Source: Desulfotalea psychrophila LSv54 (GTDB taxonomy: Bacteria; Desulfobacterota; Desulfobulbia; Desulfobulbales; Desulfocapsaceae). Taken from it: a stretch of DNA of 32,000 bases. Numbering within the stretch: position 1 is the first letter of the stretch; each line of letters starts with the position of its first letter. The stretch covers positions 2,430,001 to 2,462,000 of the forward strand of contig NC_006138.1 of NCBI RefSeq assembly GCF_000025945.1, written 5' to 3'. The translations under genes and the position numbers were made by a program. The notes under the pieces are model-generated. The model had not been told where the DNA came from. It saw only the letters and a program-made list of their open reading frames with translations, and made no database searches. Shown one piece after another: positions 15,072-26,100 of this stretch.

Positions 15072-18000
15072 TTAGAAACGGAAGCCGAATTTCAGGTTTG
15101 CACCCAAACTGCTAATATGCGAAGAGATCGCAGTGTTTACGCCGAAGCTACCGAAAAGCTGTCCTCTTTCGGCAATCAGGTCGACAGACAGTTTGCCGGT
15201 AACATCATCATAAACATCTGTTATTAAAGGTAAAGTCTCCGGTGTGCCAATCAGGGTACTTCTGCTGGTAAAATCGGTATCACCAAAGGCAAAATTCACC
15301 CCGGCATCAGCAGCAATGTTAAATTGCAATCCACTGTCAGCTGCGGCAAACTTATACATATACTTAACACCCATAGGGATTATCCAGGTGTCCATGCTGC
15401 TTGCATTTACGGCAAAAACATCGTTTGTATAAGCATCTTGCTTATAATATTGATAACGCATACCAGCATATGGGCTGACAACGGTATCTCCCAGCTCAAA
15501 CAGATAACTAGCCTTTACCCCCGTACCAAGTACATAGGAGTCAATGCCATCGGCCTTGAGAGTTGAATATCTTGTGTCAGAAGACATTGCTGTATAAAGA
15601 GCATCCACACTAATCTGCATAGCATTAGAGAGGTTGTAAGCTCCATACATGGTTAGGCCGTAGAAATCACTGTCTGTATCGGCAGAAGATGTAAATCCTT
15701 CACCAGATACCTTACCAGCACCATAGGTGAAGGCTCCACCGTAGAGAAAATCACCAAGCACGCTATCAGCACCTAAGGCTGCACCGTAAAGATCAATATC
15801 CATATCGGTGCTATAGTTACCTATATTCATACCGCTAATATCGCTTTTTTGATAAAGAGGTTGAAAATAGATACCTGTGCTGTAATCACCGGTTATATCC
15901 GTGTGTTTCTGGGCGAGATCAAGTACCAGAGCAGAGGCAATGGTATTTACATGGGCAATACCACCAACTCCGGCAATATTGGCAGATGCCTCCGTTGCCT
16001 GTCCGCCGCTTGTTGGGCTAGCGCCACGCAAAATACCCTTCATATAATTGGTGGATGTAACTCCAAGCACTTCATAACCACGTTCGTTGTAATTAGTCAG
16101 GAAGCTTGCAGTATTTCCCCGAGCACCATAGAGGGTGGCGGCGGTACCGGCACTTTTAGTCGTAAAACTACCGTCAACTAAAGAAGCAACTTCCTGGAGT
16201 TGGTTATAAAGATAGATATTAGCCAGTAGCCAGTTATCGCCAGTACTTGTCATGGTATATTTTTCCCCGACAAGTGCACCCTTAACACCTACAAATGCCT
16301 TGTTGGAAATAGTTACCGTATCCGCAGTAATAGCAGGTTGTCCAGCCAGATTGGTTACATCAACCACCAACAGAGAATTGTCAGCAAATGTAGCTGTTCC
16401 GCCAACTGGTACATCTGCCCCAGTTGGCGCCGTGACGCGAGAACCATCTACGGTAAGGGAGCCGGCAGCACCAACTTTATAAGGGCCATCAAGATAGACG
16501 GCAGCTGTTACCCCAGTGCGGCCCCAGGTTGTGTTATTGTCCTCTGTGATTTTTTTAACAATATTATCAACATCACCAGCATCGGTTGTACCCAGGGCAA
16601 TAATAGAATTTTGTCCAGCCACTAAATGGCCGTTAATAACATTACTATCAGCACCAGTTCCAAAATTAACAATGCTTACATGGGAGGCATCTTTAGCTTT
16701 AGCAAGTTCCGTACTATCTAACCAATTGGGATCGGCAAAGAGCATAGCTCCATTAAGAGACGCTGTTTCAAGAGCCAGCGAGCCTTGGCCCTGACTATTA
16801 CCAATATTAATAACCGTCTCTTCTGTGGCTGTTAATTCCTTGACGGAAAGAGTTCCCTTTTTAATGTTTACTTTGCCACCAAGTGATGCTGTTTCAAGGG
16901 CCAACGAGCCTTGCCCCTGCCCCTGGCTATCACCAATATTAACAGTCGTTCCACTTTGGGCTGTTAAAGCCGTGATGGAAAAATCTCCATTTCTAACATT
17001 AAGCTCGGTTTTTGGAGCCGAAGAGTCGTCAGCTGCAACCAGCTCAACCTTAGCGTCAAGCGTTCCCTGAGTCCTTTTCTCGGTTGCAACCTCACCTTTG
17101 GCGCCAAGATTAAGAACACTTCCTCCACCAACATTCACAGATTTTTCCTCTGCCCCACCTTTTAGCAGGGATTCTTCTCCACTAGAACTCCCCCTAAGGG
17201 AAAGCACTGTCCCCTTACTCACCTTAACTTCCGCAACGGTATCGGGAAGTTCATAGCTTTGCGCCCCCATCGGTGTGCCCTTAGCAAAAGAGATTTGAGT
17301 CTTGTCAACAGAGTCCTCAGGAACAGTCAGCTTTATTTCCTTTTCAGGACTGTCTATGATTTCAGCCAGCCCAAGGTCGATAGGCCCATCACCCATATCA
17401 AAGCCACTATATAAGAAACTTCCTTTAAAATCAGAATATTGGCTTTTGAAGCTAGTTTCAAAAGAAGTGATTCTCTCTTGGTCATAAACATCAGAACTAA
17501 CAAGATCAATAGTTCCCTGACCAGCAAAAGAGAATTCACTGGTATCTGCTATAGAACTCCCCGTTGCCAATAAATCGTAGGAGGTGGTTAAAACTGCACC
17601 TTTCTCCACTTCAATAGCGGAATTTGTATGATAAGGCGCAGTTACTGTCTCGACAGTCAGATGAGAGGTATCTCTTACACTGATTTTATTCTGGCCATAA
17701 AGGTTCAGATTACTAATCTTAGCCTGAGAACTGTCCTGGGTGACGATATGAGCATTGGTCAAATCAAATTTTCCAACTGAAACAGTTGCGCCGTCAGCTA
17801 CGCTGAGATGAGCATGCTGATTGTCATGCTCGGACTCAACAGCATTACCCTGTAACTGAATTCTTTTAATGGCAAAGTTTGCGGGACTGTTCAAGTACCC
17901 CCTAATCTCATTAAATTTTGAGCCTGCAAGAGCTTTTTTATCCTCTGCATCCATGCCCACATGAATCCAGGAATTAGCCGAATGACCTTCATAGGTGGCA

Positions 18001-19574
18001 TCACCTGGGTCCCTTACCTGTATTCTGGCGATAGTCTTCTCCGCCCCTTCGGGATTACCAATGAGGAGAAAATTACCACCCTCTCTGAGCTGTACCTTAT
18101 CAGCAAGATCTGCAGCATTAACCCCGACAGCACCGCCACCAGTAACCCTAAAAGACTTGGCCGGGGCAGGATCTTCTCCGACAAGGGGGGAAAATGAGCT
18201 GATTTCGCCGAGGTTAATCCCCAAGGCATCAGTCATATGGACAGGTGCATCCTCCTGGTCCTCAAAGGCATCTCTACTTACCAGCTCAAAACCGATTGCC
18301 CCCCCACCCAGTTTAATTGTGCCGGTACCGGTATTAAGAGCCATATCTAAGGCTGGATCAGACATCTCTTCACCAGCGGCAGGATAATAGACAGACTTCA
18401 TGGCACTGGAAGGCGAATGATCCACATCATCCACCGATTGAGAGACAGTGATGGTTCCCCTGTTCTCGGTATGAGTATAGGGATCACTCATCATACCTAC
18501 GGAGTAGTTGCCCTTCAGATCAATTACTCCAGAGTTGATAGTGGTTGAACCCTCACCATTACCATCAATGGCTGTGACAATGGTGTCTTCTCCACCCAGT
18601 ATGCTGCCACTGTTTACAATAAAATTCCCGCCGGTACCTCTCATCCCCCGGGTGTGATGGCCATCCAGCTTTTTCCCTGCATGGGTACCCGTAATTACGC
18701 CACCATGAACAACGCTAATTGTCCCTTTATTGAGCATTGTAATCCCGATCACCGGCTCCTCACTGTCGATACTATCCCGGTCATGTTGATCACCTAGGGG
18801 GCTGACATAGGGCGCGCCGGACCCCATGGCTATGCTATCAGAGTCACTGACAATAATCTTGCCATCTGCGGCATTGTTAAGGGTGAGAATATCCCCAGCA
18901 TGTCCAACGCCTTCAGACCACATGCCCAGTGCCTCCTGGTCAGTGGATACATCAATGGTGCCAGAATTTCTCATTACTACAGCTAAATTTTCCCCAGTAC
19001 TATCTTGTCGCTCAACCACCATACCAACATTGTGATTTGGGCTACTGCTTAGAGACTCTTTTGCAAGAATACGTCCCTTATTCTCGACAAGAATATGAGA
19101 ATCATCGGCAACACTCTCACCTACGGGCACAAAAATACCTGCCGCAATACCTTCACCGGATTCATTGTGCAGATCAAGGGTGATATTGGCATCTGAAACA
19201 ACTTCCAGATTACGCTTGGCAGAATCTCTTCCGTCAGCAAGAATTTCTACCCCAATCCCCAAGACATTGGCTTTACCCTCTTCAACCCCAAATACCTCTA
19301 TCCCCTCTTTAACCTCTTCAGCACTCCCGGCAAAAGAGATATGTACATCTTTCACATCTGCAGAGGGCGTAATACGCAGAACTTCTTTTGTATTATGTAC
19401 ATCATTATATTGATAGCCTCCACTACCACCTGTAGTGCAGGTGGTGGACTGTCCATCGACAGTAATCACAGGATCGGCAAAGACATTACTGCTGTTCATG
19501 GTTAGCAGAAAGGCACCAACGGCCAAGGCAGTTACCGCGTTATATTTTTTTTTATACGACTTTTGATGCAACAT
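15072..19574 (-). CDS. Type Va autotransporter: signal peptide, beta-helical passenger of about 1200 aa, C-terminal 12-strand beta-barrel translocator
   Basis: 1500 aa with a signal peptide (..AVGAFLLTMNSSNVFA/DP). The passenger is Gly/Thr/Asn/Val-rich, nearly Cys-free and repetitive. The C-terminal region of about 280 aa shows alternating aromatic/hydrophobic beta-strands and ends in the OMP signature ..NLKFGFRF. GAGG lies 8 nt upstream of the ATG. Confidence 0.9.
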   Translation of the reverse strand: MLHQKSYKKKYNAVTALAVGAFLLTMNSSNVFADPVITVDGQSTTCTTGGSGGYQYNDVHNTKEVLRITPSADVKDVHISFAGSAEEVKEGIEVFGVEEGKANVLGIGVEILADGRDSAKRNLEVVSDANITLDLHNESGEGIAAGIFVPVGESVADDSHILVENKGRILAKESLSSSPNHNVGMVVERQDSTGENLAVVMRNSGTIDVSTDQEALGMWSEGVGHAGDILTLNNAADGKIIVSDSDSIAMGSGAPYVSPLGDQHDRDSIDSEEPVIGITMLNKGTISVVHGGVITGTHAGKKLDGHHTRGMRGTGGNFIVNSGSILGGEDTIVTAIDGNGEGSTTINSGVIDLKGNYSVGMMSDPYTHTENRGTITVSQSVDDVDHSPSSAMKSVYYPAAGEEMSDPALDMALNTGTGTIKLGGGAIGFELVSRDAFEDQEDAPVHMTDALGINLGEISSFSPLVGEDPAPAKSFRVTGGGAVGVNAADLADKVQLREGGNFLLIGNPEGAEKTIARIQVRDPGDATYEGHSANSWIHVGMDAEDKKALAGSKFNEIRGYLNSPANFAIKRIQLQGNAVESEHDNQHAHLSVADGATVSVGKFDLTNAHIVTQDSSQAKISNLNLYGQNKISVRDTSHLTVETVTAPYHTNSAIEVEKGAVLTTSYDLLATGSSIADTSEFSFAGQGTIDLVSSDVYDQERITSFETSFKSQYSDFKGSFLYSGFDMGDGPIDLGLAEIIDSPEKEIKLTVPEDSVDKTQISFAKGTPMGAQSYELPDTVAEVKVSKGTVLSLRGSSSGEESLLKGGAEEKSVNVGGGSVLNLGAKGEVATEKRTQGTLDAKVELVAADDSSAPKTELNVRNGDFSITALTAQSGTTVNIGDSQGQGQGSLALETASLGGKVNIKKGTLSVKELTATEETVINIGNSQGQGSLALETASLNGAMLFADPNWLDSTELAKAKDASHVSIVNFGTGADSNVINGHLVAGQNSIIALGTTDAGDVDNIVKKITEDNNTTWGRTGVTAAVYLDGPYKVGAAGSLTVDGSRVTAPTGADVPVGGTATFADNSLLVVDVTNLAGQPAITADTVTISNKAFVGVKGALVGEKYTMTSTGDNWLLANIYLYNQLQEVASLVDGSFTTKSAGTAATLYGARGNTASFLTNYNERGYEVLGVTSTNYMKGILRGASPTSGGQATEASANIAGVGGIAHVNTIASALVLDLAQKHTDITGDYSTGIYFQPLYQKSDISGMNIGNYSTDMDIDLYGAALGADSVLGDFLYGGAFTYGAGKVSGEGFTSSADTDSDFYGLTMYGAYNLSNAMQISVDALYTAMSSDTRYSTLKADGIDSYVLGTGVKASYLFELGDTVVSPYAGMRYQYYKQDAYTNDVFAVNASSMDTWIIPMGVKYMYKFAAADSGLQFNIAADAGVNFAFGDTDFTSRSTLIGTPETLPLITDVYDDVTGKLSVDLIAERGQLFGSFGVNTAISSHISSLGANLKFGFRF
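16750..16990 (-). repeat. Tandem intragenic duplication (about 126 bp / 42 aa period) inside the autotransporter passenger
   Basis: The DNA blocks GCTGTTTCAAGAGCCAGCGAGCCTTGGCCCTGACTATTACCAATATTAA (from 16762) and GCTGTTTCAAGGGCCAACGAGCCTTGCCCCTGCCCCTGGCTATCACCAATATTAA (from 16888) are near-identical. At the protein level they read ..INIGNSQGQGSLALETASLNG.. and ..VNIGDSQGQGQGSLALETASLGG.. Confidence 0.65.
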
Positions 19575-20581
19575 TTTTACCTCAAATTTAAATTTGTCTT
19601 AACAAGCTATTTTACTAAAAACCATCTAAGGGTAAATTCCCTTTCCCTTCGAAACCTGCCGAACAACTGAGCTTTTCAATGGATGTATCGTTGTTCTTCT
19701 AAAAAGAATGCCTTGATATCAGCTGGCTTATAATCAACCCTCCGCAAAAAATATTAATGCCTGAGATAAGTTGGAATAATTCCACCAGTTCAAATCAATT
19801 TATTTAAGAAACGACCAAACAATCGCAGGAAAGCCAATGCCAGATATCTGCCACGGATCTTACCCCTTGCCGCCCTCCCGAAAAGGAAGGTCTGCCCTCT
19901 TTACTAAATGGCAGGATCGAAAAAGGAGACAGAACTGATCTTTTTTCCAAGAGCATCCCTTACAAGGGCTTGGCTTAAAAAACCCAATAAATCTCTACAT
20001 TATTTTTATATTATGATCAATGATTTAAATTTATTAGCTTGGTATGGTGCAATGTTATCCTGTAAGTAGCAGCTATCCATTCCTTTCGTTCAGAGGGTGT
20101 TGGCTGATGGTTAAAGGATGGCGCTAGGATTATAGGGAAAAAAGACATGGCAAAGAGGGAGGAATGGGGACATAGGTGAGGTTAGCGGGCCCACCATTCC
20201 CGTGAGAATAATGGTTGAACGCCATTGAATAAAAACTTCCAAACAGAATGTTGATAAGAAAGTCTTATTGTTTTAAATGCTTAGATCGAAAAAGTAAGGT
20301 TTTGGGATTCGTTAGTGGGGGTCGGCTTACCGATTGGAGCCTAAAAGATAAATGAGGGGGCTACCTGTTACCAACTCAATATTGGCAGTACGTCTTCTAG
20401 GCAGGTTCTAATTTTACACCAAACTATCTGGCTCTATTCCTCGCAATCTAGATCTGGCCACAGCTAGCTTGTTAGGCCGAGATCTATATGCGCAATGGAC
20501 ATATCAGTTAAAGAGTTTGCCTCCTTATAAGAACGCATTCTTTCGTATCTTTTAAACTACTTTGTAAATATCCACAAAATA

Positions 20582-20626
20582 GGTTGACGACGTCAACCAC
20601 TACGGTTAAAGTTGATGGCGTCAACC
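20582..20626. promoter_or_regulatory. Two copies of a 17-bp palindromic operator overlapping a putative marR promoter
   Basis: Site 1 is GGTTGACGACGTCAACC (20582-20598), a perfect palindrome. Site 2 is AGTTGATGGCGTCAACC (20610-20626), matching site 1 at 14/17 positions. A putative promoter reads TTGACG (20584-20589), a 17-nt spacer, then TAAAGT (20607-20612). Site 1 therefore covers the -35 box and site 2 covers the -10 box and start site. Confidence 0.65.
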
Positions 20627-20699
20627 TATTTGCATGTTGATTGGTTTATAGTTGAAACCACTTACAGCCAGAAGCTATAAGATAATCTCGGAGAACCTT

Positions 20700-21146
20700 A
20701 TGAAAAAGTTAGAAGCCATAGATCCTAAGAAATCCATCAAGCTCAGTAGAGCCCTGATAGAAATTGTCTGGCAATTTGGTCCCAAAGGGCTGGACGGTCA
20801 ATGCTGTGAGGATCTTTCAATGCCGGAATATCTTGCCTTGGAGACCTCTGCTACCACCAATGACTGTCCGGTACAGCATATAGGGAATAAGCTTAACTTT
20901 ACAAAAAGTGGCGCCACTCGCATCGTTAATCGCCTTGAGAAAAAAGGGTATATCCAAAAGATCAAATCCTATGAAGATGCTCGCGTCTGCTGTGTGGTTC
21001 CTACAGACAAGGGAAAGAGTATTCTTGAAAATGTAGCACAAGGTTATGCCGATCGCCTATCTGCTGTGCTAAGCAAGGTGCCTGCTAAACAGTCAGACAA
21101 TATAGCCAATGCCCTATTAGAGATGGCAGCGGCACTGCGCAGATAG
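20700..21146 (+). CDS. MarR-family winged-helix transcriptional regulator with two vicinal Cys-Cys pairs
   Basis: The MarR wHTH core is MPEYLALE..VQHIGNKLNFTKSGATRIVNRLEKKGYIQKIKSYEDARVCCVVPTDKGKSIL. It has five Cys, including GQCCEDL just before helix 2 and RVCCVV in the wing. I moved the start to the ATG at 20700 (MKKLEAID..), which has GGAGA 7 nt upstream. The track start at 20652 is a TTG. Confidence 0.85.
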   Translation: MKKLEAIDPKKSIKLSRALIEIVWQFGPKGLDGQCCEDLSMPEYLALETSATTNDCPVQHIGNKLNFTKSGATRIVNRLEKKGYIQKIKSYEDARVCCVVPTDKGKSILENVAQGYADRLSAVLSKVPAKQSDNIANALLEMAAALRR

Positions 21147-21240
21147 TATTTCAGATCGTTAAATTCACAGCTAGCATCAGGGTAAGAAAAGTAAGGTACG
21201 TTCTGTCCATCGATACAGGCATGGATTTATTTAACTATTT

Positions 21241-21257
21241 GGTTGACATCGTCAACC
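21241..21257. promoter_or_regulatory. Third copy of the 17-bp palindromic operator, immediately upstream of the permease gene
   Basis: GGTTGACATCGTCAACC matches site 1 at 15/17 positions and has perfect 7-bp arms. It ends 4 nt before the GGAGA Shine-Dalgarno and 17 nt before the permease ATG at 21275. Confidence 0.65.
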
Positions 21258-21274
21258 AATCGGAGACTCTCTAA

Positions 21275-22174
21275 ATGAACTCATTTACAAAAACTATTGA
21301 ATTTTTCCTTTTCATCACTGCAGAATTGACAGTTTTATTTCTTGGAATCAGCACCTTAGTCGCTTTAGCATTGATGTATATCCCCCAGGAAAAGTTAAGA
21401 GATTGGTTATCCAGACGTGGCATTTTGGGCAATGTTCTGGCGGCAACAGTCGGTTCGTTAACCCCATTTTGTGCCTGCTCCACTATTCCGATGACTTTGG
21501 GCCTACTCAAGGCTGGCGCACCATTTGGGCCGGTTATGTCCTTTGTTATCGCCTCACCACTGTTAAATCCCATAATTATAGCAATGGTGGCAGCACTCAT
21601 GGGCTTAAAGGCATGTGTGCTCTACTTTGCCATCACCTTTCTGGGATCGATCGTTTTTGGCATCGTTTTGGAAAGAGTCGGTGGAGCAGCGTGGGTCAAA
21701 AATGTGCAAATACGACCAAGCTGCTGTGGTGAGGGTAAACAGAAAGAAAACCTATCTTTTTCAGGAAAACTTAAGCGTTCATTTGCCTCTGCCTGGAAGG
21801 ATTTCAGGGCCGTACTCCCCTTTCTCCTTATTGGTGTGGCAATTGGTGCAGGCATATACGGCTATATGCCACAGGAATTTGTGATCTCACTGGCTGGGCC
21901 ACAGAATCCATTCGCTATTCCTATTGCTGCCATCATCGGTATTCCACTCTATATCAGGGCTGAAACAGCCATTCCTATTGGTATGGCCCTGGCTGAGAAG
22001 GGTATGAGTATGGGAGCGGTAATAGCATTGATTATCGGGGGAGCAGGAATGGCAATCCCTGAAATGAGCATGCTGGCCAGCATTTTCCGTAAACGCCTTG
22101 TGGCATCCATTGTGGCGGTTATTTTCGCCACGGCGGTAATTGGCGGTTTTTCCTTCAACCTCATGCTTGCCTAG
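21275..22174 (+). CDS. COG0701 / ArsP-like permease with a vicinal-thiol TPFCACS motif
   Basis: 299 aa and polytopic. It carries the signature GSLTPFCACSTIPMTLGLL..SFVIASPLLNP, typical of the DUF318/ArsP permease family. A central loop holds a further Cys pair (IRPSCCGEGKQKE). The second half is related to the first (GIPLYIRAETAIPIGMAL). Confidence 0.85.
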   Translation: MNSFTKTIEFFLFITAELTVLFLGISTLVALALMYIPQEKLRDWLSRRGILGNVLAATVGSLTPFCACSTIPMTLGLLKAGAPFGPVMSFVIASPLLNPIIIAMVAALMGLKACVLYFAITFLGSIVFGIVLERVGGAAWVKNVQIRPSCCGEGKQKENLSFSGKLKRSFASAWKDFRAVLPFLLIGVAIGAGIYGYMPQEFVISLAGPQNPFAIPIAAIIGIPLYIRAETAIPIGMALAEKGMSMGAVIALIIGGAGMAIPEMSMLASIFRKRLVASIVAVIFATAVIGGFSFNLMLA

Positions 22175-22269
22175 GAATAGCTTTGCCAGAGGGCGGTTGA
22201 TACGCATCCGGCAAGTTAACTTCGGTAGCGGACAAAAAACACAACTCACCATTACTAAAGGAAAAAACT

Positions 22270-22377
22270 ATGAAGAAGAATGGGCGCATTTTGGGGAAAC
22301 TTTTCGGAGGCTCTAAAAAAAAGGAGTGCTGTGCAATTGAACTCGAAGAGATCCCCGCAACTAAGCAGGGTTCGTAA
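22270..22377 (+). CDS. Candidate 35-aa Cys-Cys micro-protein (MKKNGRILGKLFGGSKKKECCAIELEEIPATKQGS)
   Basis: The ATG follows AAGGA about 8 nt upstream and lies in the 358-nt gap between the permease and rhodanese genes. The call is tentative: an overlapping 54-aa ORF in another frame (22280..22444, ending ..NRGCGCCN) is an alternative reading. Confidence 0.3.
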   Translation: MKKNGRILGKLFGGSKKKECCAIELEEIPATKQGS

Positions 22378-22532
22378 AAAGGGGACAACTGAAAAAGAGG
22401 CAAAGGAAGACCAGCAAAACAGGGGTTGCGGCTGTTGCAATTAAGAGGGTGGCGACCGGTGTAACAAGGTTCCAATAATAATTTGCCACGAACGGATCTG
22501 TTGCTGGCAAAGCATCCACAAGGACTAAAAGA

Positions 22533-22940
22533 GTGAATCAACTAGATAGAACACTAAGAGAAATGGATTTGCAATTCTTTGCAGAAGGTAAACATGGTGT
22601 AACGCTCAACATGGCCGCCGATTGCCTCGAAAATTCAGAAGATGCCGTCTTCCTGGATGTGCGAACAGAAGAAGAGGCAGGTTTTGTGAGGTTTAAAAAT
22701 GTGCTGCATATACCACTGAATCAGTTACCCGATCGACTGGGGGAGCTGCCCCAGAATCAACCCATTATTGTATTTTGTACTTCGGTTGTTCGGGCAAGCA
22801 TGGCTGCCTTTTATCTAAGGGCAGAGGGCATAACAGCTGTGCGGACCCTACTGGCTAGTTCAGAGGAAATGGTGAAGCTATTCTCTTCGTCCAGAGTGTT
22901 CAGCCGCAAAACGTCAACAAACCAACAGCAGTGTAACTAA
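22533..22940 (+). CDS. Single-domain rhodanese sulfurtransferase (catalytic Cys82; C-terminal ..QQQCN tail)
   Basis: The rhodanese fold is VFLDVRTEEEAGFVRFKNVLHIPLNQLPDRLGELPQNQPIIVFCTSVVRASMAAFYL, with a 6-residue active-site loop CTSVVR (TGT at 22776-22778). The GTG start at 22533 has AAGGA about 8 nt upstream. It is supported by N-terminal similarity to the downstream paralogue (LREMDLQFFAEG versus FREMDFVAFGNG). Confidence 0.85.
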   Translation: MNQLDRTLREMDLQFFAEGKHGVTLNMAADCLENSEDAVFLDVRTEEEAGFVRFKNVLHIPLNQLPDRLGELPQNQPIIVFCTSVVRASMAAFYLRAEGITAVRTLLASSEEMVKLFSSSRVFSRKTSTNQQQCN

Positions 22941-22949
22941 GGAAGCGAT

Positions 22950-23363
22950 ATGAAAAATTTACAGGGGTATTTCAGGGAGATGGATTTTGTGGCATTCGGG
23001 AATGGGGATTTTAATACACCTGCCGCGGCCCTGCCAAAGCTGATCAAAAACAATGTATTCTTGCTGGACCTGCGAACCTGGGAAGAGGTTGAGGCCTTTT
23101 CCCTGCCATTTGCCAAAAGTATACCGATAAATGAGCTTCCAGAGAGGCTCGAAGAAGTTCCTAAAAACAGGCCGGTTATTTTGTTCTCCAACGGCTCCTG
23201 GCGCTCAAGTGTGGGACTCGCCTATCTCATTGCAAAAGGTTTTGACGAGGTGTCGATTATTGCCCAGGGACTTCCTGAAATGTTGAAGACCCTAAAACCA
23301 GGCCCATTGTTTGGAGCAGGCGTACACAAGGTTCAAGCTCAAACAGACTGCAACTGTGGATAA
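22950..23363 (+). CDS. Rhodanese-homology protein with Ser in place of the catalytic Cys (C-terminal ..DCNCG tail)
   Basis: This is a paralogue of the preceding gene (VFLLDLRTWEEVEAFSLPFAKSIPINELPERLEEVPKNRPVILFSNGSWRSSVGLAYL). The aligned active-site position is Ser80 (TCC, 23187-23189). It starts 9 nt after the stop of the upstream gene. Confidence 0.85.
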   Translation: MKNLQGYFREMDFVAFGNGDFNTPAAALPKLIKNNVFLLDLRTWEEVEAFSLPFAKSIPINELPERLEEVPKNRPVILFSNGSWRSSVGLAYLIAKGFDEVSIIAQGLPEMLKTLKPGPLFGAGVHKVQAQTDCNCG

Positions 23364-23365
23364 AG

Positions 23366-24106
23366 ATGCTACTGACTATTGCCCTACTAGCATTTTGTTT
23401 GAGTTTTATCTTTGCCCTGGGTGGCGTGGGAAGTGCTGTGGCTTTAGTTCCCGCGCTTATCGCCATTGGAGTTCCTGGAGGTGTCGCCCGTCCCATCGCC
23501 TTACTTGTTAATACAGTAAGCCTCGGCGGGGGCACCATCTATAACCTCAAAACAGGTAAATTCAAACCCGGCCCATGGTGGTTATTGATACTGTTTTCCC
23601 TCCCGGCTGCCCCTCTGGGGGCATGGGTTTCCACCTTAATTCCGCATAATATTCTCTCCGGGGTATTTGCTGGATTCATGGTCTTTTCCGGTTTTTTGAT
23701 GATTGCTCCTGCACGGAAAAGTCAGCAAAAAGAGGAACGAAACACCTGTCCACCAGTAGGCGGAGCCTTGATCGGGGCAGTTTCGGGTGTGGTATCTGGC
23801 ATGCTGGGGGTAGGCGGTGGAGGTGTGATCATCCCCGCCTTATATGCCATGCGGTTTCGTTCGCATCATATTGCAATGATCACAGCGATGGCCGTCCCAT
23901 TTTCTTCTTTCACAGGCTTTATCGCCTATGCCGCCATGGGTTCGCTCAATATAACTACCGTTGTAGTGGCATCGTTAGCAGCTCTTGCTGGTGGCACCAT
24001 TGGCACAAGAGCAATGCACCGTATCGATCAGCGATTGGTGAAAATGTTTTTATCAATAACCTTAATAATTTCAGGAGGCAGAATCATATGGAAGCTTGTT
24101 GCCTGA
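23366..24106 (+). CDS. TauE/SafE (TSUP, DUF81) family anion exporter
   Basis: 246 aa and polytopic. It shows the two-repeat TSUP pattern with Gly-rich motifs (FALGGVGSAVALVPAL.. and ..GMLGVGGGGVIIPAL..). It starts 2 nt after the rhodanese-like gene. Confidence 0.9.
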   Translation: MLLTIALLAFCLSFIFALGGVGSAVALVPALIAIGVPGGVARPIALLVNTVSLGGGTIYNLKTGKFKPGPWWLLILFSLPAAPLGAWVSTLIPHNILSGVFAGFMVFSGFLMIAPARKSQQKEERNTCPPVGGALIGAVSGVVSGMLGVGGGGVIIPALYAMRFRSHHIAMITAMAVPFSSFTGFIAYAAMGSLNITTVVVASLAALAGGTIGTRAMHRIDQRLVKMFLSITLIISGGRIIWKLVA

Positions 24107-24122
24107 GAAAGCTGAAGTTTGA

Positions 24123-24389
24123 CCTTCCGAAGAAATAAATGTTGGTACCGATGGTATATGGGAAGGAAGCAACAGACATGGAGAATGTGGCAAACAGTGA
24201 TTGATGAAACTCATTCGCCAGAACAGTACAGCTAGTGCAAAAAAAATTTTAGATGAGATTTTCGAAGAACACGCTCAGTTTTCAAAGGGAAAAAATAAAA
24301 AAGACGACCTAACCCTGGTAGTTATTAAAATAGTTAAAGATAGTCTTACTGAAACTATCACCGATCCCGACACATCTCCTAATCAATAA
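24123..24389 (+). pseudogene. 5'-truncated remnant of a PP2C/SpoIIE-family phosphatase gene (C-terminal ~85 codons, with an in-frame stop)
   Basis: A single frame reads ..EEINVGTDGIWEGSNRHGECGKQ*LMKLIRQNSTASAKKILDEIFEEHAQFSKGKNKKDDLTLVVIKI.., with the stop TGA at 24198-24200. This reproduces the C-terminal SpoIIE/RsbU pattern (..TDGI.E....GE.FG..RL..L......A.E....I......F.......DD.TL.V.K.). No catalytic N-terminal part exists, because the fragment begins about 17 nt after the TauE stop. Confidence 0.6.
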
Positions 24390-24396
24390 CCAGGTA

Positions 24397-24426
24397 GCTT
24401 TCAATCGGCATGCCGATTGAAAGCTG
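24397..24426. terminator. 30-nt perfect palindrome between convergent genes (bidirectional terminator-like hairpin)
   Basis: AGCTTTCAATCGG-CATG-CCGATTGAAAGCT forms a 13-bp stem. It lies between the + strand remnant (ending 24389) and the - strand DUF445 gene (stop at 24478). Neither side has a good U-tract. Confidence 0.45.
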
Positions 24427-24477
24427 CTTGATTCCAGTCACTTAATCCAATGAGTTACTTTTTGCCCCCGCTTCGCG

Positions 24478-26100
24478 CTAGGCAAGGGCCAGAAAGAAGA
24501 GGTTGATGCAGCCGAGGATAAAACCAAGGAGGGCACCAAAGAGATTGATATACTTGAACTGTTCTTCCATGATGGAGAGGAGAAGCTGTTCGAGTTTAAG
24601 GAGGTCAAGGGAGTCAACCTTATCGGCTACAATCTGCTGCAGGTTGAAGGATTTCACCATCCCCGGCAACTCCCTGGAAACGGTCTTGGTCAGGTAGCTC
24701 TGCAGGGATTGATAGATACTGTCCCGCATATTTTCATTAAGAAAGCGGGACAGCTTACCTATTTTACAGGCCAATCCCTTTGTCAGCAGCGAATCGACGG
24801 CGGTAGAGATAACCTCGTTGATGCGCTCGGAGCGAAGGGCAGTCAGGCTTTTATCGAGGAGGCTTTCCTGTAGAAGGGCGACTTTCTCCTGCCCCAAAAG
24901 ATCGGCCAGGGCCTCTTGGATTGAGTGATCACCTGTCATATAGCCCTTAATGCTATCGGTAAATGTCTCTGTCAAAACCCCCTGCAACTGCTCATCCTGT
25001 AATTGTTTAAAGAGGCCGTGGCTAATGCCCTTGCTTAGGGCCTCTAGCTGCTGTGGTTCAATATCTCTTACCAGATCGGCCATGGGGGCGGCAAAGAGTT
25101 TTCCCAACTGGTCGTTTAAGAGAGCGGTAACTCGTTCCCCTACCACGTCTCCCTGAATCCAGGCAAGAATATCCTCCTCTTTTTCGTCCAGATAGTCGGC
25201 AATTTTAGCACGTACCGTCTCCATTTTAATAAAGTTCCCGACCATTGCCCCCATGGGTCCCATGGAAGCAATAAAGCTCTCTACTCCACCGCAGGCTCCG
25301 TCAATAATTTTTTCGCGTACATCGTCTGTGGCTAAAAGTCCGCCAACACCGGCGAGCAGAGGCTGAACCTGTTTTTCCACCAGCCCTTTCAAGAGACCGT
25401 AGGAGGCCTCTGGTAAAATGTCCGCGAGACTGCTGTTTTGCTGAAAGGCATCCTGCACCTTGGTATGGACAGCATTTTCAAGCCATTGCTCACAGGCGGG
25501 GCTGGACAAAAAGCGTCCCAGGTGTCCGGATAGGGATGTCTGCAGAGATACAAGCAGTTCGGCTTGTTGCTCCTCAGCTAGAAGGGAGGAGAGCTTTTCG
25601 GCAAGAAATTTATCGCTGATATCCTGGAGAACATCTCTTAACTGTCGGGCAAACTGATCCGAGCCGATAAAGCTACTCACCCCATCCTTTATCTTATAGG
25701 AGAGATAGTCAACGGCCAGTCCATAGTAGCAGGAGAATTGAGGAGGCAACAGGGACTGGAGGGTGCCAAGATCCCTCTGGGCCAGGGCTTCGCCCCGGGC
25801 CTGTATCTTATCGTGGACTTGTGCCTGTACGTGTTTTTGCTCTATCGCTTTTTGTACTTCTGTGCCGGTAATGAGATAATCGGCAACCATTCGTCCCATA
25901 TTTTCGGCAAGTTCATGCCGCTTTGCCGGAATGACACCGGGGGTCATGGGCACCCGCATGCCAAAGATATGCCAGGGGTTGAGGGGGCGAAAGAGCATCT
26001 TGATGGCAATCTTATTGGTAAGATAACCAATAAAGGCACCAACCATGGGTGGTGCAATATACTGGGCAATTGGGAAAATATCAGCAGGCGTTACAGGCAT
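24478..26100 (-). CDS. DUF445-family membrane-associated protein
   Basis: 540 aa with the N-terminal signature VGAFIGYLTNKIAIKMLFRPLNPW..RVPMTPGVIPAKRHELAENMG, typical of DUF445/YheB-like proteins. A long helical middle region follows, then a C-terminal TM helix (LFGALLGFILGCINLFFLALA). Confidence 0.8.
   Translation of the reverse strand: MPVTPADIFPIAQYIAPPMVGAFIGYLTNKIAIKMLFRPLNPWHIFGMRVPMTPGVIPAKRHELAENMGRMVADYLITGTEVQKAIEQKHVQAQVHDKIQARGEALAQRDLGTLQSLLPPQFSCYYGLAVDYLSYKIKDGVSSFIGSDQFARQLRDVLQDISDKFLAEKLSSLLAEEQQAELLVSLQTSLSGHLGRFLSSPACEQWLENAVHTKVQDAFQQNSSLADILPEASYGLLKGLVEKQVQPLLAGVGGLLATDDVREKIIDGACGGVESFIASMGPMGAMVGNFIKMETVRAKIADYLDEKEEDILAWIQGDVVGERVTALLNDQLGKLFAAPMADLVRDIEPQQLEALSKGISHGLFKQLQDEQLQGVLTETFTDSIKGYMTGDHSIQEALADLLGQEKVALLQESLLDKSLTALRSERINEVISTAVDSLLTKGLACKIGKLSRFLNENMRDSIYQSLQSYLTKTVSRELPGMVKSFNLQQIVADKVDSLDLLKLEQLLLSIMEEQFKYINLFGALLGFILGCINLFFLALA

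What the first reader, a model, noticed from the sequence alone, without database searches (positions are those of the whole stretch)
20582..24106. Operator-flanked, thiol-rich MarR / COG0701 permease / Cys micro-ORF / rhodanese pair / TSUP exporter module of unassigned function
Seen in sequence:
- Six co-directional ORFs with gaps of 128, 95, 155, 9 and 2 nt.
- The module is bracketed by about 1 kb of AT-rich non-coding DNA on the left and a truncated phosphatase remnant on the right.
- Cysteine-rich motifs recur in five of the six predicted products. The MarR regulator has two CC pairs. The permease has TPFCACS plus a loop SCCGEG. The micro-ORF has ECC (or GCGCCN in the other frame). The active rhodanese has Cys82 and a ..QQQCN tail. 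Its Ser-substituted paralogue has a ..DCNCG tail.

Established knowledge:
- ArsP-type COG0701 permeases use the vicinal-thiol TPFC(S/A)CS motif, and Campylobacter ArsP exports trivalent organoarsenicals.
- Rhodaneses carry persulfide (or perselenide) on the loop Cys.
- TauE/SafE TSUP proteins export sulfite- or sulfonate-type anions.
- A thiol-sensing repressor combined with a rhodanese and a TauE-like exporter is known from the S. aureus cst (CstR) and Xylella BigR sulfide-stress operons.

Inference:
- This combination differs from those precedents. It has a MarR scaffold instead of CsoR/ArsR, no persulfide dioxygenase or SQR, and no thioredoxin-fold partner gene next to the COG0701 permease.
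- It may therefore be a distinct thiol-relay module that moves a thiophilic substrate across the membrane. Candidates are persulfide/polysulfide sulfur, selenium, or As/Sb(III).
- I cannot confirm novelty from the sequence alone.
Basis: partly seen in the sequence, partly recalled or inferred. Interest (0 to 1): 0.75.

Follow-up and report, generated by a model that had tools for sequence, protein, structure and literature searches.

The report
Arsenic-type efflux cassette plus sulfur add-on
A cold-adapted sulfate reducer carries a cysteine-sensing repressor, a pump of the arsenic-exporter family and a tiny unnamed cysteine peptide; these three form a widespread arsenic-resistance-type unit, joined here to two sulfur-transfer proteins and an anion exporter, so most of it is a variant of something known.

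Summary
All six ORFs, the gaps, the family assignments, the cysteine motifs and three palindromic operators are present in Desulfotalea psychrophila LSv54.

The "module" is composite.

**Unit 1: MarR, ArsP_1-family permease, ~57-aa CC peptide.** Permease orthologues from about a dozen phyla are 63-88% identical.
- A MarR lies next to the permease in about 60 of 80 species.
- The operator TTGAYNNNRTCAA keeps its positions in 59 of 88 loci.
- The peptide lies directly downstream in at least 57 of 80 species.
- Canonical ars genes (ACR3, ArsC, ArsM, ArsD/A) lie within 5 kb in 34 of 80.
- The MarR shares its N-terminal CCE motif with the published As(III)/Sb(III)-sensing MarR_ars type.

Unit 1 is best read as a metalloid (arsenical) efflux cassette. 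The peptide family has no Pfam or NCBIfam model.

**Unit 2: active rhodanese, inactive rhodanese, TauE.** A rhodanese-TauE pair is conserved on its own. It is attached to unit 1 only in Desulfotalea, Desulfoluna, Halodesulfovibrio and a few metagenome-assembled genomes (MAGs) and metagenome contigs. The closest relatives lack it. Its role is inferred only.

**Verdict:** new variant of a known kind; moderate interest.

The parts
20582..20599 (.). Operator O1, palindrome GGTTGACGACGTCAACCA. It overlaps the -35-like hexamer TTGACG of the marR promoter.
   Evidence: The same TTGAYNNNRTCAA motif lies upstream of marR in orthologous loci.
20610..20627 (.). Operator O2, AGTTGATGGCGTCAACCT. It overlaps the end of the -10-like hexamer TAAAGT (20607-20612).
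   Evidence: Paired operators with the same 28-nt spacing occur in L009 and L004.
20700..21146 (+). MarR-family repressor of 148 aa from ATG 20700 (the longest ORF starts at TTG 20652). It has two conserved vicinal Cys pairs, CC35-36 and CC97-98.
   Evidence: Pfam MarR E 1.8e-11. CC35-36 is present in 62 of 62 orthologues and CC97-98 in 61 of 62. It is 31% identical (E 1e-16) to a MarR in a Pseudomonas plasmid ars island, with the CCE motif aligned.
21241..21258 (.). Operator O3, GGTTGACATCGTCAACCA, ending 16 nt before the permease ATG and just before its GGAG ribosome-binding site.
   Evidence: The motif lies 26-35 nt upstream of the permease start in most orthologous loci across phyla.
21275..22174 (+). 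ArsP_1 (COG0701/UPF0718) permease of 299 aa. It has an invariant TPFCACS motif (C66, C68) and a loop SCCGEG (C150-151).
   Evidence: Pfam PF03773 at 184 bits. C66 and C68 are present in 85 of 85 orthologues. Orthologues sit in ars islands. The AlphaFold2 model places C66/C68 at a helix break and the CC loop in a disordered segment.
22270..22444 (+). Gene for a ~57-aa CC peptide (MKKNGRILGKLFGGSKKKECCAIELEEIPATKQGS|KKGTTEKEAKEDQQNRGCGCCN). A 1-nt insertion near 22375 splits it, so the annotated frame stops at 22377.
   Evidence: Intact orthologues are. The DNA alignment shows the extra base. The family HMM hits this ORF at E 4.7e-6, and hits the same position in 57 of 80 species.
22533..22940 (+). 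Rhodanese A of 135 aa (GTG start). It has the catalytic Cys82 in a six-residue loop CTSVVR and a C-terminal ..QQQCN tail.
   Evidence: Pfam rhodanese. Loop and tail come from the alignment. The closest solved relatives are persulfide-handling rhodanese domains.
22950..23363 (+). Rhodanese B of 137 aa, a catalytically dead paralogue (Ser at the Cys position) with a Cys-rich tail ..TDCNCG.
   Evidence: Orthologues have Ser, Ala or Gly at that site. Tails of the form CxCxxCC occur in L089, L014 and L019.
23366..24106 (+). TauE/SafE (TSUP family) membrane protein of 246 aa. Its start lies 2 nt after the rhodanese B stop.
   Evidence: Pfam PF01925 E 2.9e-39. It is 64-71% identical to Desulfoluna and Desulfobacterium orthologues in the same position.
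24388..24433 (.). A 23-nt inverted repeat after the SpoIIE-like remnant. It may be a terminator that closes the region. Its membership in the unit is uncertain.
   Evidence: I1, 87% complementary, no spacer. The terminator scan did not call it.

Best explanation
The locus is a composite of two units.

**Unit 1: thiophilic-metalloid (arsenical-type) efflux cassette.**
- The parts are operators O1-O3, marR, the permease and the CC-peptide gene.
- Without inducer, the MarR dimer sits on two palindromes over its own promoter and on a third just ahead of the permease ribosome-binding site.
- As(III), Sb(III) or a trivalent organoarsenical is bound by the invariant vicinal cysteine pairs. This releases the repressor.
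- The ArsP_1-family permease then exports the metalloid using its invariant membrane-embedded Cys-x-Cys.
- The small, largely disordered, cytosolic CC peptide acts as a thiol hand-off partner (chaperone or adaptor) for the permease.
- In strain LSv54 a frameshift has removed the peptide's C-terminal CGCC tail. Alternatively this is a sequencing error.

**Unit 2: accessory trio.**
- The parts are the active rhodanese, the inactive Cys-tailed rhodanese and TauE.
- The trio is probably read through from the same promoter.
- It adds a sulfane-sulfur transfer step and an anion export step. These may deal with arsenic-sulfur species or with the thiol/sulfur side of metalloid stress in a sulfidic cell.

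**Shown here:** gene families, conserved cysteines, conserved operators, conserved gene order and the ars-island context of orthologues.

**Inferred:** the inducer, the transported substrate, the direction of transport, the peptide's role, co-transcription, and everything about the function of unit 2.
For: Orthologue distribution:
- Permease orthologues from 80 species in about a dozen phyla are 63-88% identical.
- A MarR homologue lies next to the permease in about 60 of 80 species. It is directly upstream in 53.
- The operator TTGAYNNNRTCAA keeps the same two positions in 59 of 88 loci. About 0.003 matches per locus would be expected by chance.
- The CC peptide lies directly downstream on the same strand in 57 of 80 species, and all 57 HMM hits are in that position.

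Arsenic context:
- Canonical ars genes lie within 5 kb in 34 of 80 species: ACR3 in 29, LMW-phosphatase-type ArsC in 12, ArsM in 8, ArsD in 3 and ArsA in 1.
- The ACR3 and ArsM representatives score above the NCBIfam cutoffs.
- L175 reads ArsC-MarR-ArsP_1-peptide-ArsR-ArsD-ArsA-ACR3. L177 reads ArsD-ArsA-ArsC-MarR-ArsP_1-peptide-sigma factor-methyltransferase-DUF2703.
- A Staphylococcus plasmid has arsD-arsA divergent from ArsR-permease-peptide.

Regulator:
- The window MarR aligns (E 1e-16) with a MarR located between arsQLM and arsRBCH on a Pseudomonas plasmid. The CCE motif is in register.
- A MarR with vicinal Cys36/37 has been shown to be an As(III)/Sb(III)-released repressor, and was noted next to arsV, arsN and arsP (bioRxiv 10.1101/2021.08.12.456183).

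Permease family:
- C. jejuni ArsP exports MAs(III) and Rox(III) (review PMC6205960).
- A stand-alone ArsP-domain (UPF0718) protein in Pseudomonas is induced by arsenite (PMC10138600).

Link between the two units:
- The same gene order recurs in Halodesulfovibrio, Desulfoluna, a Desulfobacterium MAG and contig L142.
- Rhodanese-TauE pairs also sit next to distant (~30% identical) ArsP_1 permeases, ArsR and ACR3 in L097, L101, L152, L154 and L163.
- The inactive rhodanese paralogue is found only beside the MarR-type permease.
Against: - No other ars gene lies in the 32-kb window.
- The permease scores far below the cutoffs of every curated equivalog. Its best NCBIfam hits are SaoE and the SO_0444 Cu/Zn exporter, each at about 99 bits.
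- Its orthology to the characterised C. jejuni ArsP was not tested.
- The MarR lacks the C-terminal third cysteine of the published MarR_ars proteins.
- The closest relatives (L009, L004) lack the rhodanese/TauE trio within 5 kb.
- No operator precedes rhodanese A, and co-transcription is unproven.
- Rhodanese A has a sulfurtransferase-type loop. Its nearest solved relatives handle persulfide, not arsenic.
- Gene neighbourhood is circumstantial evidence. No expression or transport data exist for this locus.
Confidence: 0.6

Rival explanations
1. The locus is a reactive-sulfur (persulfide/polysulfide/sulfite) homeostasis module, an anaerobic counterpart of the cst/BigR systems. In this reading the MarR cysteine pairs sense sulfane sulfur by forming polysulfide bridges. 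The rhodaneses carry persulfide, and the two membrane proteins move sulfur species.
For: - Rhodanese A has a six-residue sulfurtransferase loop.
- Its closest solved relatives are the rhodanese domains of CoA-persulfide reductases, a persulfide-dioxygenase fusion and the Sud protein.
- A rhodanese directly upstream of TauE is a conserved pair in 45 of 80 metagenome loci, mostly without ars genes in the DNA available.
- The host is a sulfate reducer.
- No ars gene lies in the window.
Against: - The regulator, its operators, the permease and the peptide travel together without rhodanese or TauE in most species, and they sit in ars islands in 34 of 80.
- The MarR shares its CCE motif with an ars-island MarR.
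- No persulfide dioxygenase, SQR or CstR/BigR-type regulator is present.
- Rhodanese-TauE pairs themselves recur beside ACR3, ArsR and ArsP_1 permeases.
Confidence: 0.15
2. The locus is an efflux system for a soft metal cation (Cu(I), Zn, Cd, Hg), like the SO_0444 or SaoE branches of the same permease superfamily. The Cys-rich tails would act as metal-binding arms.
For: - The best curated NCBIfam hits of the permease are SaoE (E 1.8e-28) and the SO_0444 Cu/Zn efflux family (E 2.8e-28).
- C-terminal CxCxxCC tails on the peptide, on rhodanese B and on DUF2703 partners resemble metal-binding tails.
- One locus (L175) also has a P-type ATPase with an HMA domain nearby.
Against: - Both hits score about 99 bits against cutoffs of 300-325, so the permease is a member of neither family.
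- None of the SAO partner genes is present.
- The neighbourhood census shows ars genes and no recurrent cop, czc or mer genes.
Confidence: 0.1
3. There are two unrelated neighbours. MarR-permease-peptide and rhodanese-rhodanese-TauE are independent transcription units that happen to be adjacent, with no shared function.
For: - The closest relatives have unit 1 without unit 2 (L009, L004).
- Desulfoluna limicola (L036) and the Desulfolunaceae MAG L034 lack the trio, while two other Desulfoluna species have it.
- No operator lies before rhodanese A.
- An 88-155 nt gap separates the units.
- Rhodanese-TauE is a self-standing pair elsewhere.
Against: - The adjacency recurs in at least four genera of different families and in metagenome contigs, with two different rhodanese orders.
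- It also recurs with a distant ArsP_1 permease subfamily.
- In Desulfoluna the trio lies between the permease operators and a convergent marR that has its own operator.
- The dead rhodanese paralogue occurs only in this context.
- No terminator-like hairpin was found between the units.
Confidence: 0.2

Closest known systems
MarR_ars, the As(III)/Sb(III)-responsive MarR subfamily (AdMarR of Achromobacter sp. As-55; Yu et al., bioRxiv 10.1101/2021.08.12.456183)
   Same: - Both are MarR winged-helix repressors with a vicinal Cys pair at about residue 35-37.
- Both have binding sites at the regulator's own promoter and at that of the adjacent resistance gene.
- The subfamily is found next to ars resistance genes including arsP.
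- The window protein aligns (31% identity, E 1e-16) with an ars-island MarR, and the CCE motif is in register.
   Different: - The window protein and its 61 orthologues lack the C-terminal third cysteine (Cys157 in AdMarR).
- They carry instead an invariant second vicinal pair (CC97-98) near the wing.
- The target gene here is a permease plus peptide, not arsV.
- The inducer has not been tested.
ArsP, the trivalent organoarsenical efflux permease of Campylobacter jejuni (TC 2.A.119; Pfam ArsP_1)
   Same: - Both belong to the same Pfam family.
- Both have the same TPFC(S/A)CS vicinal-thiol motif, which is invariant here.
- Orthologues lie in ars islands, several directly upstream of ArsM.
   Different: - Direct orthology to C. 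jejuni ArsP was not tested.
- This subgroup has a MarR rather than an ArsR regulator, an extra cytosolic CC loop in about 55-59% of members, and a conserved small CC-peptide partner. As far as I know, no such partner has been described for ArsP.
ArsD, the arsenic metallochaperone for ArsA (established knowledge, not tested here)
   Same: Like ArsD, the CC peptide is a soluble partner that carries vicinal cysteine pairs. It is encoded next to the transporter it would serve.
   Different: - There is no sequence relationship.
- The CC peptide is about 57 aa and predicted to be largely disordered.
- It would serve a secondary permease, not an ATPase.
- The chaperone role is inference only.
cst (CstR) operon of S. 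aureus and the BigR operon of Xylella/Agrobacterium
   Same: A thiol-based repressor is combined with rhodanese-domain protein(s) and a TauE-family exporter.
   Different: - The regulator family differs (MarR, not CsoR-like or ArsR-like).
- There is no persulfide dioxygenase or SQR.
- The regulator and its operators belong to the permease-peptide unit, which in other genomes sits among ars genes.
SaoE (SAO locus) and the SO_0444 Cu/Zn efflux families (Haft, bioRxiv 10.1101/2022.07.06.499078)
   Same: They belong to the same permease superfamily, share the CxC signature and have Cys-rich accessory proteins nearby.
   Different: - The scores are about 99 bits against cutoffs of 300-325.
- No SaoP, SaoA, SaoB, SaoX, SaoL or SaoT genes are present.
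- SaoC is a 158-aa lipoprotein and is unrelated to the CC peptide.

Membership tests
ArsP / Pfam ArsP_1 (TC 2.A.119) | Full-length match to PF03773 above the gathering score | tested here: met
   184.4 bits against a cutoff of 32.3, covering profile positions 6-292 of 294.
ArsP / Pfam ArsP_1 (TC 2.A.119) | Vicinal-thiol motif TPFC(S/A)CS in a membrane segment | tested here: met
   TPFCACS is present. C66 and C68 are invariant in 85 of 85 orthologues. In the AlphaFold2 model they lie at a helix break. That this motif is essential in C. jejuni ArsP is from my own knowledge.
ArsP / Pfam ArsP_1 (TC 2.A.119) | Encoded within or next to an ars operon | tested here: inconclusive
   No ars gene lies in this 32-kb window. 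In 34 of 80 orthologous loci a canonical ars gene lies within 5 kb (examples).
ArsP / Pfam ArsP_1 (TC 2.A.119) | Exports MAs(III)/Rox(III) and confers resistance | not testable with these tools
   This needs heterologous expression and transport assays.
MarR_ars subfamily | MarR winged-helix fold | tested here: met
   PF01047 at E 1.8e-11. MarR structures are the only PDB sequence matches.
MarR_ars subfamily | Conserved N-terminal vicinal cysteines (Cys36/Cys37 in AdMarR) | tested here: met
   CC35-36 is invariant in 62 of 62 orthologues. It aligns with the CC of an ars-island MarR on a Pseudomonas plasmid.
MarR_ars subfamily | Conserved C-terminal third cysteine (Cys157 in AdMarR) | tested here: not met
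   The protein ends ...EMAAALRR with no C-terminal Cys. A second vicinal pair, CC97-98, is invariant instead.
MarR_ars subfamily | Binds its own promoter and that of the adjacent resistance gene, and is released by As(III)/Sb(III) | not testable with these tools
   Palindromic sites are present at both places and are conserved across phyla. Binding and the inducer need EMSA or reporter assays.
cst / BigR sulfide-stress operons | CstR (CsoR-like) or BigR (ArsR-like) persulfide-sensing repressor | tested here: not met
   The regulator is a MarR.
cst / BigR sulfide-stress operons | Persulfide dioxygenase (CstB/Blh) and/or SQR | tested here: not met
   Neither is among the six genes or the flanking ORFs.
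cst / BigR sulfide-stress operons | Rhodanese-domain sulfurtransferase plus a TauE-family exporter | tested here: met
SaoE (SAO locus efflux transporter) | Score above the NCBIfam NF040736 cutoff, and co-occurrence with SaoP, SaoA, SaoB and SaoX | tested here: not met
   99.8 bits against a cutoff of 325. No ABC transporter genes are adjacent.
SO_0444 Cu/Zn efflux family | Score above the NCBIfam NF033936 cutoff | tested here: not met
   99.1 bits against a cutoff of 300.
Rhodanese-fold arsenate reductase (Acr2/Cdc25 type) | Seven-residue C-X5-R active-site loop | tested here: not met
   Rhodanese A has CTSVVR and its relatives have CSSVFR. These are C-X4-R, the six-residue sulfurtransferase-type loop. 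The loop-length rule is established knowledge.

The most novel reading that the evidence does not exclude
The most novel reading has two parts.

1. The ~57-aa CC peptide is a previously unrecognised ars component. It would be an obligate thiol hand-off partner for a large branch of ArsP-type permeases, present from Staphylococcus plasmids to sulfate reducers.

2. In sulfidic anaerobes the attached trio (active rhodanese, dead Cys-tailed rhodanese, TauE) extends the cassette into a pathway for thiolated arsenicals.
   - The rhodanese would strip sulfane sulfur from thioarsenate-type species, which are structural analogues of thiosulfate.
   - The resulting As(III) species would pass along vicinal-Cys carriers to the permease.
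   - TauE would move the sulfur or anionic partner.
Probability: 0.12. Interest if true: 0.8.

Novelty: new variant of a known kind. Interest (0 to 1): 0.5.

Why it matters
If the reading is right, three things follow.

1. **Extension of the MarR_ars idea.** The arsenic-sensing MarR concept would reach a four-cysteine variant that is spread through about a dozen anaerobe phyla. Its operator, TTGAYNNNRTCAA, is now defined and could be used for regulon prediction and for biosensors.

2. **A candidate new ars gene.** The small CC-peptide family is conserved but unnamed. A profile search found 259 cluster representatives, and no Pfam or NCBIfam model exists. It sits next to ArsP-type permeases even on staphylococcal plasmids, and annotation pipelines often miss or ignore it.

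3. **A genetic handle on thiolated arsenicals.** Rhodanese-TauE pairs recur beside arsenic transporters in sulfate reducers. How anaerobes cope with thiolated arsenicals is an open question for paddy soils and sediments, and these loci offer a concrete starting point.

If the reading is wrong, the locus is still a clean example of a mobile, thiol-sensing efflux cassette.

Tried and rejected
- **Exact-sequence look-up of the permease** found nothing. The homology search then identified the source.
- **My first operator regex used the wrong spacer length** and gave a false 'not conserved' result. Reading L009 and L004 directly exposed the error, and one search is the corrected scan.
- **The first metagenome scan with the single TauE protein** found no relative. 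An alignment query worked.
- **The SaoE/SaoC analogy** was considered and rejected. The scores are far below cutoff, and SaoC is a 158-aa lipoprotein.
- **A rhodanese-fold arsenate reductase** was rejected on loop length.
- **Selenium** was considered. No supporting context appeared beyond weak DUF2703 / 'DF family (seleno)protein' hits in other genomes.
- **PDB sequence searches** for the permease and TauE gave nothing.
- **Structure prediction and fold search were uninformative.** The permease AlphaFold2 model was of modest confidence (pLDDT 65). Foldseek found no significant PDB match (best E 0.09), so the fold comparison says nothing.
- **The AlphaFold2 model of the peptide** was low-confidence and mostly disordered.
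- **Rfam** found nothing in 19400-24600.
- **Literature searches** for COG0701 with MarR, and for rhodanese with TauE and arsenic, gave nothing directly relevant.
- **The original ArsP paper (PMC4681449) is not held**. Statements about its Cys65/Cys67 rest on my own knowledge and on the review.

Full report
**Source and observation**

The window is from the chromosome of Desulfotalea psychrophila LSv54. The permease is 100% identical to a protein on a 3,523,383-bp NCBI contig of that species.

- MarR, ArsP_1/COG0701 permease, two rhodaneses and TauE.
- The MarR most likely starts at ATG 20700. That codon follows a GGAG ribosome-binding site, and orthologues begin at the equivalent position.

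Three copies of the palindrome GGTTGACnnCGTCAACC are present:
- Two overlap a sigma-70-like promoter upstream of marR (20582-20599 and 20610-20627).
- One ends 16 nt before the permease ATG (21241-21258).
- No shuffle of the window reaches the observed count.

The flanks are as follows:
- The left flank is about 1.1 kb of low-GC DNA with no ORFs and no Rfam match.
- The right-hand 'phosphatase remnant' is only a weak SpoIIE match below the Pfam cutoff.

**The micro-ORF is one gene, frameshifted**

Directly downstream of orthologous permeases lies a small gene:
- In Syntrophobacter: MKYKKKTSFFKKIFGGESACCSLDIEEIDS...SCCSTL....
- In JGI contig L004: MNKKEQSGFFGKLFGGLRKENCCAIEIVEIP...YGCGCCR.

A DNA alignment with the two closest relatives shows a single extra base in the window at about 22375. 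It creates the TAA stop. In LSv54 the product is therefore truncated after 35 residues and loses its CGCC tail, unless this is a sequencing error.

**Unit 1 (MarR, operators, permease, CC peptide) is deeply conserved**

A scan of one genome per GTDB species returned 80 loci whose permeases are 63-88% identical to the query. By record title they come from Thermodesulfobacteriota, Verrucomicrobiota, Planctomycetota, Bacillota, Bacteroidota, Synergistota, Fibrobacterota, Spirochaetota, Thermotogota and others.

- A MarR homologue lies next to the permease in about 60 of the 80. It is directly upstream in 53.
- The motif TTGAYNNNRTCAA occurs within 800 nt upstream of the permease in 59 of 88 loci. 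Its typical positions are 26-35 nt before the permease start and just upstream of marR. My first scan used a wrong spacer length and missed this.
- MarR CC35-36 is present in 62 of 62 orthologues and CC97-98 in 61 of 62. Permease C66 and C68 are present in 85 of 85. The loop CC150-151 is present in about 55-59%.
- A profile HMM of the peptide hits a small ORF directly downstream of the permease, on the same strand, in 57 of 80 species. All 57 hits are in that position.

The peptide family looks like this:
- Its signature is (E)KKG[FL]F..L.G..KK.S-CC-x-Φ-E-Φ-E-E, then a Lys/Glu-rich linker, then a C-terminal (S)CC (Φ = hydrophobic residue).
- It has no Pfam or NCBIfam model. Where a source names a member, the name is 'hypothetical protein', with a single exception.
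- A profile search of 1.84 billion cluster representatives finds 259 members at E <= 0.001.
- AlphaFold2 predicts it to be largely disordered, with one short N-terminal helix.
- It also follows more distant permeases (41-48% identity) that have other Cys-bearing regulators. One example is ArsR on a Staphylococcus saprophyticus plasmid next to arsD-arsA. Another is a PadR on a Cupriavidus plasmid, where the peptide carries three CCAVRIEEV repeats.
- In one Bacillota MAG the peptide is fused to a DUF2703 thioredoxin-fold domain.

**What unit 1 most likely does**

A clustering census of ORFs within 3.5 kb of the permease, followed by tblastn over each whole locus (about 5 kb either side), shows the company these genes keep:

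| Neighbour | Loci (of 80) |
|---|---|
| ACR3 arsenite efflux | 29 |
| ArsR/SmtB regulator | 27 |
| Thioredoxin_3 | 26 |
| LMW-phosphatase-type ArsC | 12 |
| DUF2703 | 9 |
| ArsM arsenite methyltransferase | 8 |
| ArsD | 3 |
| ArsA | 1 |

- The ACR3 representative scores 388 bits against a cutoff of 283. The ArsM representative scores 349 bits against a cutoff of 263.
- In the ±3.5-kb clustering census the ArsM-like ORFs all lie downstream of the permease, six of seven on the same strand.
- At least one canonical ars gene is present in 34 of 80 loci.

Individual contigs make the same point:
- L175: ArsC-MarR-ArsP_1-peptide-ArsR-ArsD-ArsA-ACR3.
- L177: ArsD-ArsA-ArsC-MarR-ArsP_1-peptide-sigma factor-methyltransferase-DUF2703.
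- L172: MarR-ArsP_1-peptide ... Thioredoxin_3-thioredoxin-DsbD-ACR3.

The literature supports this reading:
- Yu et al. (bioRxiv 10.1101/2021.08.12.456183) showed that a MarR with vicinal Cys36/37 plus Cys157 is an As(III)/Sb(III)-released autorepressor. They noted such MarRs next to arsV, arsN and arsP.
- The window MarR aligns with a MarR that sits between arsQ-arsL-arsM and arsR-arsB-arsC-arsH on a Pseudomonas amygdali plasmid (31% identity, E 1e-16). GQCCEDLS in the window lies in register with RSCCEGLS in the plasmid protein. That protein has C-terminal cysteines which the window protein lacks.
- C. jejuni ArsP exports MAs(III) and Rox(III) (review PMC6205960).
- A stand-alone ArsP-domain (UPF0718) protein in Pseudomonas pseudoalcaligenes is arsenite-induced (PMC10138600).

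I therefore read unit 1 as a MarR_ars-like repressor controlling an ArsP-like metalloid efflux permease, with the CC peptide as its cytosolic thiol partner. The loop that holds CC150-151 is rich in Lys and Arg, so by the positive-inside rule it should face the cytoplasm, where the peptide would be (inference). The substrate, the inducer and the peptide's role are all inferred, not shown.

**Unit 2 (rhodanese A, rhodanese B, TauE) is an accessory**

Its distribution beside unit 1 is patchy:
- The closest relatives (Desulforhopalus L009 at 88% and L004 at 84% permease identity) have unit 1 but no rhodanese or TauE within 5 kb.
- The full order recurs in Halodesulfovibrio L055 and L057 and in metagenome contig L142, with the dead rhodanese placed first.
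- It recurs in Desulfoluna butyratoxydans and D. spongiiphila, where marR is moved to the far end on the opposite strand with its own operator.
- A Desulfobacterium MAG has a single truncated rhodanese with a Cys-rich tail.
- D. limicola (L036) and the Desulfolunaceae MAG L034 lack the trio.

An alignment-based metagenome scan with TauE returned 80 loci:
- A single active rhodanese (loop FCSSVFRGA) lies immediately upstream of TauE in 45. This is a lower bound, because many contigs are short.
- In 12 loci an ORF family that I take, from its sequence alone, to be FmdE-like lies next to TauE, upstream in 11 of them.
- Several loci also carry ArsR, ACR3, a distant (~30% identical) ArsP_1 permease, thioredoxins and a DsbD-like membrane protein (L097, L101, L152, L154, L163).

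Further properties of the rhodaneses:
- The catalytically dead paralogue (Ser, Ala or Gly at the Cys position) appears only beside the MarR-type permease. Its CxCxxCC tail appears only in the Desulfotalea/Desulfoluna group.
- Rhodanese A has a six-residue C-X4-R loop, so it is a sulfurtransferase type and not an Acr2-type arsenate reductase.
- Its nearest solved relatives are rhodanese domains of CoA-persulfide reductases, a persulfide-dioxygenase fusion and Sud.

Unit 2 therefore looks like a sulfane-sulfur transfer step plus an anion exporter that has been recruited repeatedly to arsenic-type transport loci. No operator precedes rhodanese A, and no terminator-like hairpin separates the units. 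Co-transcription is plausible but untested. What the trio does for the cassette is unknown. Handling of arsenic-sulfur species in a sulfidic cytoplasm is my speculative best guess.

**Comparison with known systems and verdict**

- The locus is not a cst/BigR operon. The regulator family is wrong, and there is no persulfide dioxygenase or SQR.
- It is not an SAO locus and not an SO_0444-type exporter. The scores are about 99 bits against cutoffs of 300-325.
- It works most like a MarR_ars-ArsP pair, a known kind.
- Four things are new here: the four-cysteine MarR variant with a defined operator; the conserved but unnamed CC peptide; the attachment of a rhodanese / dead rhodanese / TauE trio; and the frameshift in this strain.
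- Neither the permease nor TauE has a solved relative. The permease model gave no significant fold match.

I rate the finding a new variant of a known kind, of moderate interest. Most of its value lies in the CC-peptide family and in the recurrent link between arsenic-type transport loci and the rhodanese-TauE pair.

Noticed in passing
window 22370-22380: A single extra base (about T22375) relative to the two closest relatives creates the TAA stop that splits the CC-peptide gene. It is either a real frameshift in LSv54 or an error in the deposited sequence.
   Followed up: yes
L067 5932-6672; L063 6199-6645; L064 3224-3670; L071 6156-6605: In Bacillota a DUF2703 (thioredoxin-fold) gene with a C-terminal GCGCGC..GCC tail follows the CC peptide. 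In L067 the peptide and DUF2703 are fused into one 246-aa protein, which suggests the two act together.
   Followed up: partly
L120 422-1027 and 11 other TauE metagenome loci: A ~200-aa Cys-rich ORF family lies next to TauE in 12 loci (upstream in 11), the position where a rhodanese usually sits. From its sequence I take it to be FmdE-like (HGHKCP motif and a C-terminal CxxC...CxxC). This was not checked by a profile search.
   Followed up: no
L169 4605-6170 (Cupriavidus basilensis plasmid pRK1-4): A PadR-family regulator with a GCC motif precedes a 48%-identical permease. An 89-aa protein with three tandem CCAVRIEEV repeats follows it, and an IS1380 transposase lies next door. This is the same cassette logic with a third regulator family, on a conjugative plasmid.
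   Followed up: partly
L009-L088: The permease is 63-88% identical between Desulfotalea and members of about a dozen phyla, including Bacteroides, Alistipes and a MAG labelled Thermococci. That is unusually high for a membrane protein and suggests extensive horizontal transfer among anaerobes. Integrase/recombinase and transposase genes flank several loci.
   Followed up: no
L013, L014, L019, L034, L036, L045, L071, L083, L087 (e.g. L019 3462-4595): A ~377-aa protein with a 4Fe-4S dicluster domain recurs in nine loci, mostly upstream of the permease, including all the Desulfoluna loci. Its function is unknown.
   Followed up: no
window 15072-19574 (- strand): A 1500-aa ORF lies immediately left of the AT-rich spacer. 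It has an N-terminal signal-like segment and repetitive Gly/Thr-rich sequence, and looks like an autotransporter or adhesin. It was not analysed.
   Followed up: no
window 24201-24433: A 62-aa ORF weakly resembles the C-terminal end of SpoIIE/PP2C phosphatases (E 0.0013, below cutoff). A 23-nt inverted repeat with no spacer follows at 24388-24433. The remnant and hairpin may mark an old insertion boundary of the island.
   Followed up: no
L009-L088 (cluster C0): Nineteen additional ArsP_1-family ORFs lie within 3.5 kb of the anchor permease in these loci. Many genomes therefore carry two paralogous permeases side by side, often one with MarR and one with ArsR plus Thioredoxin_3.
   Followed up: no
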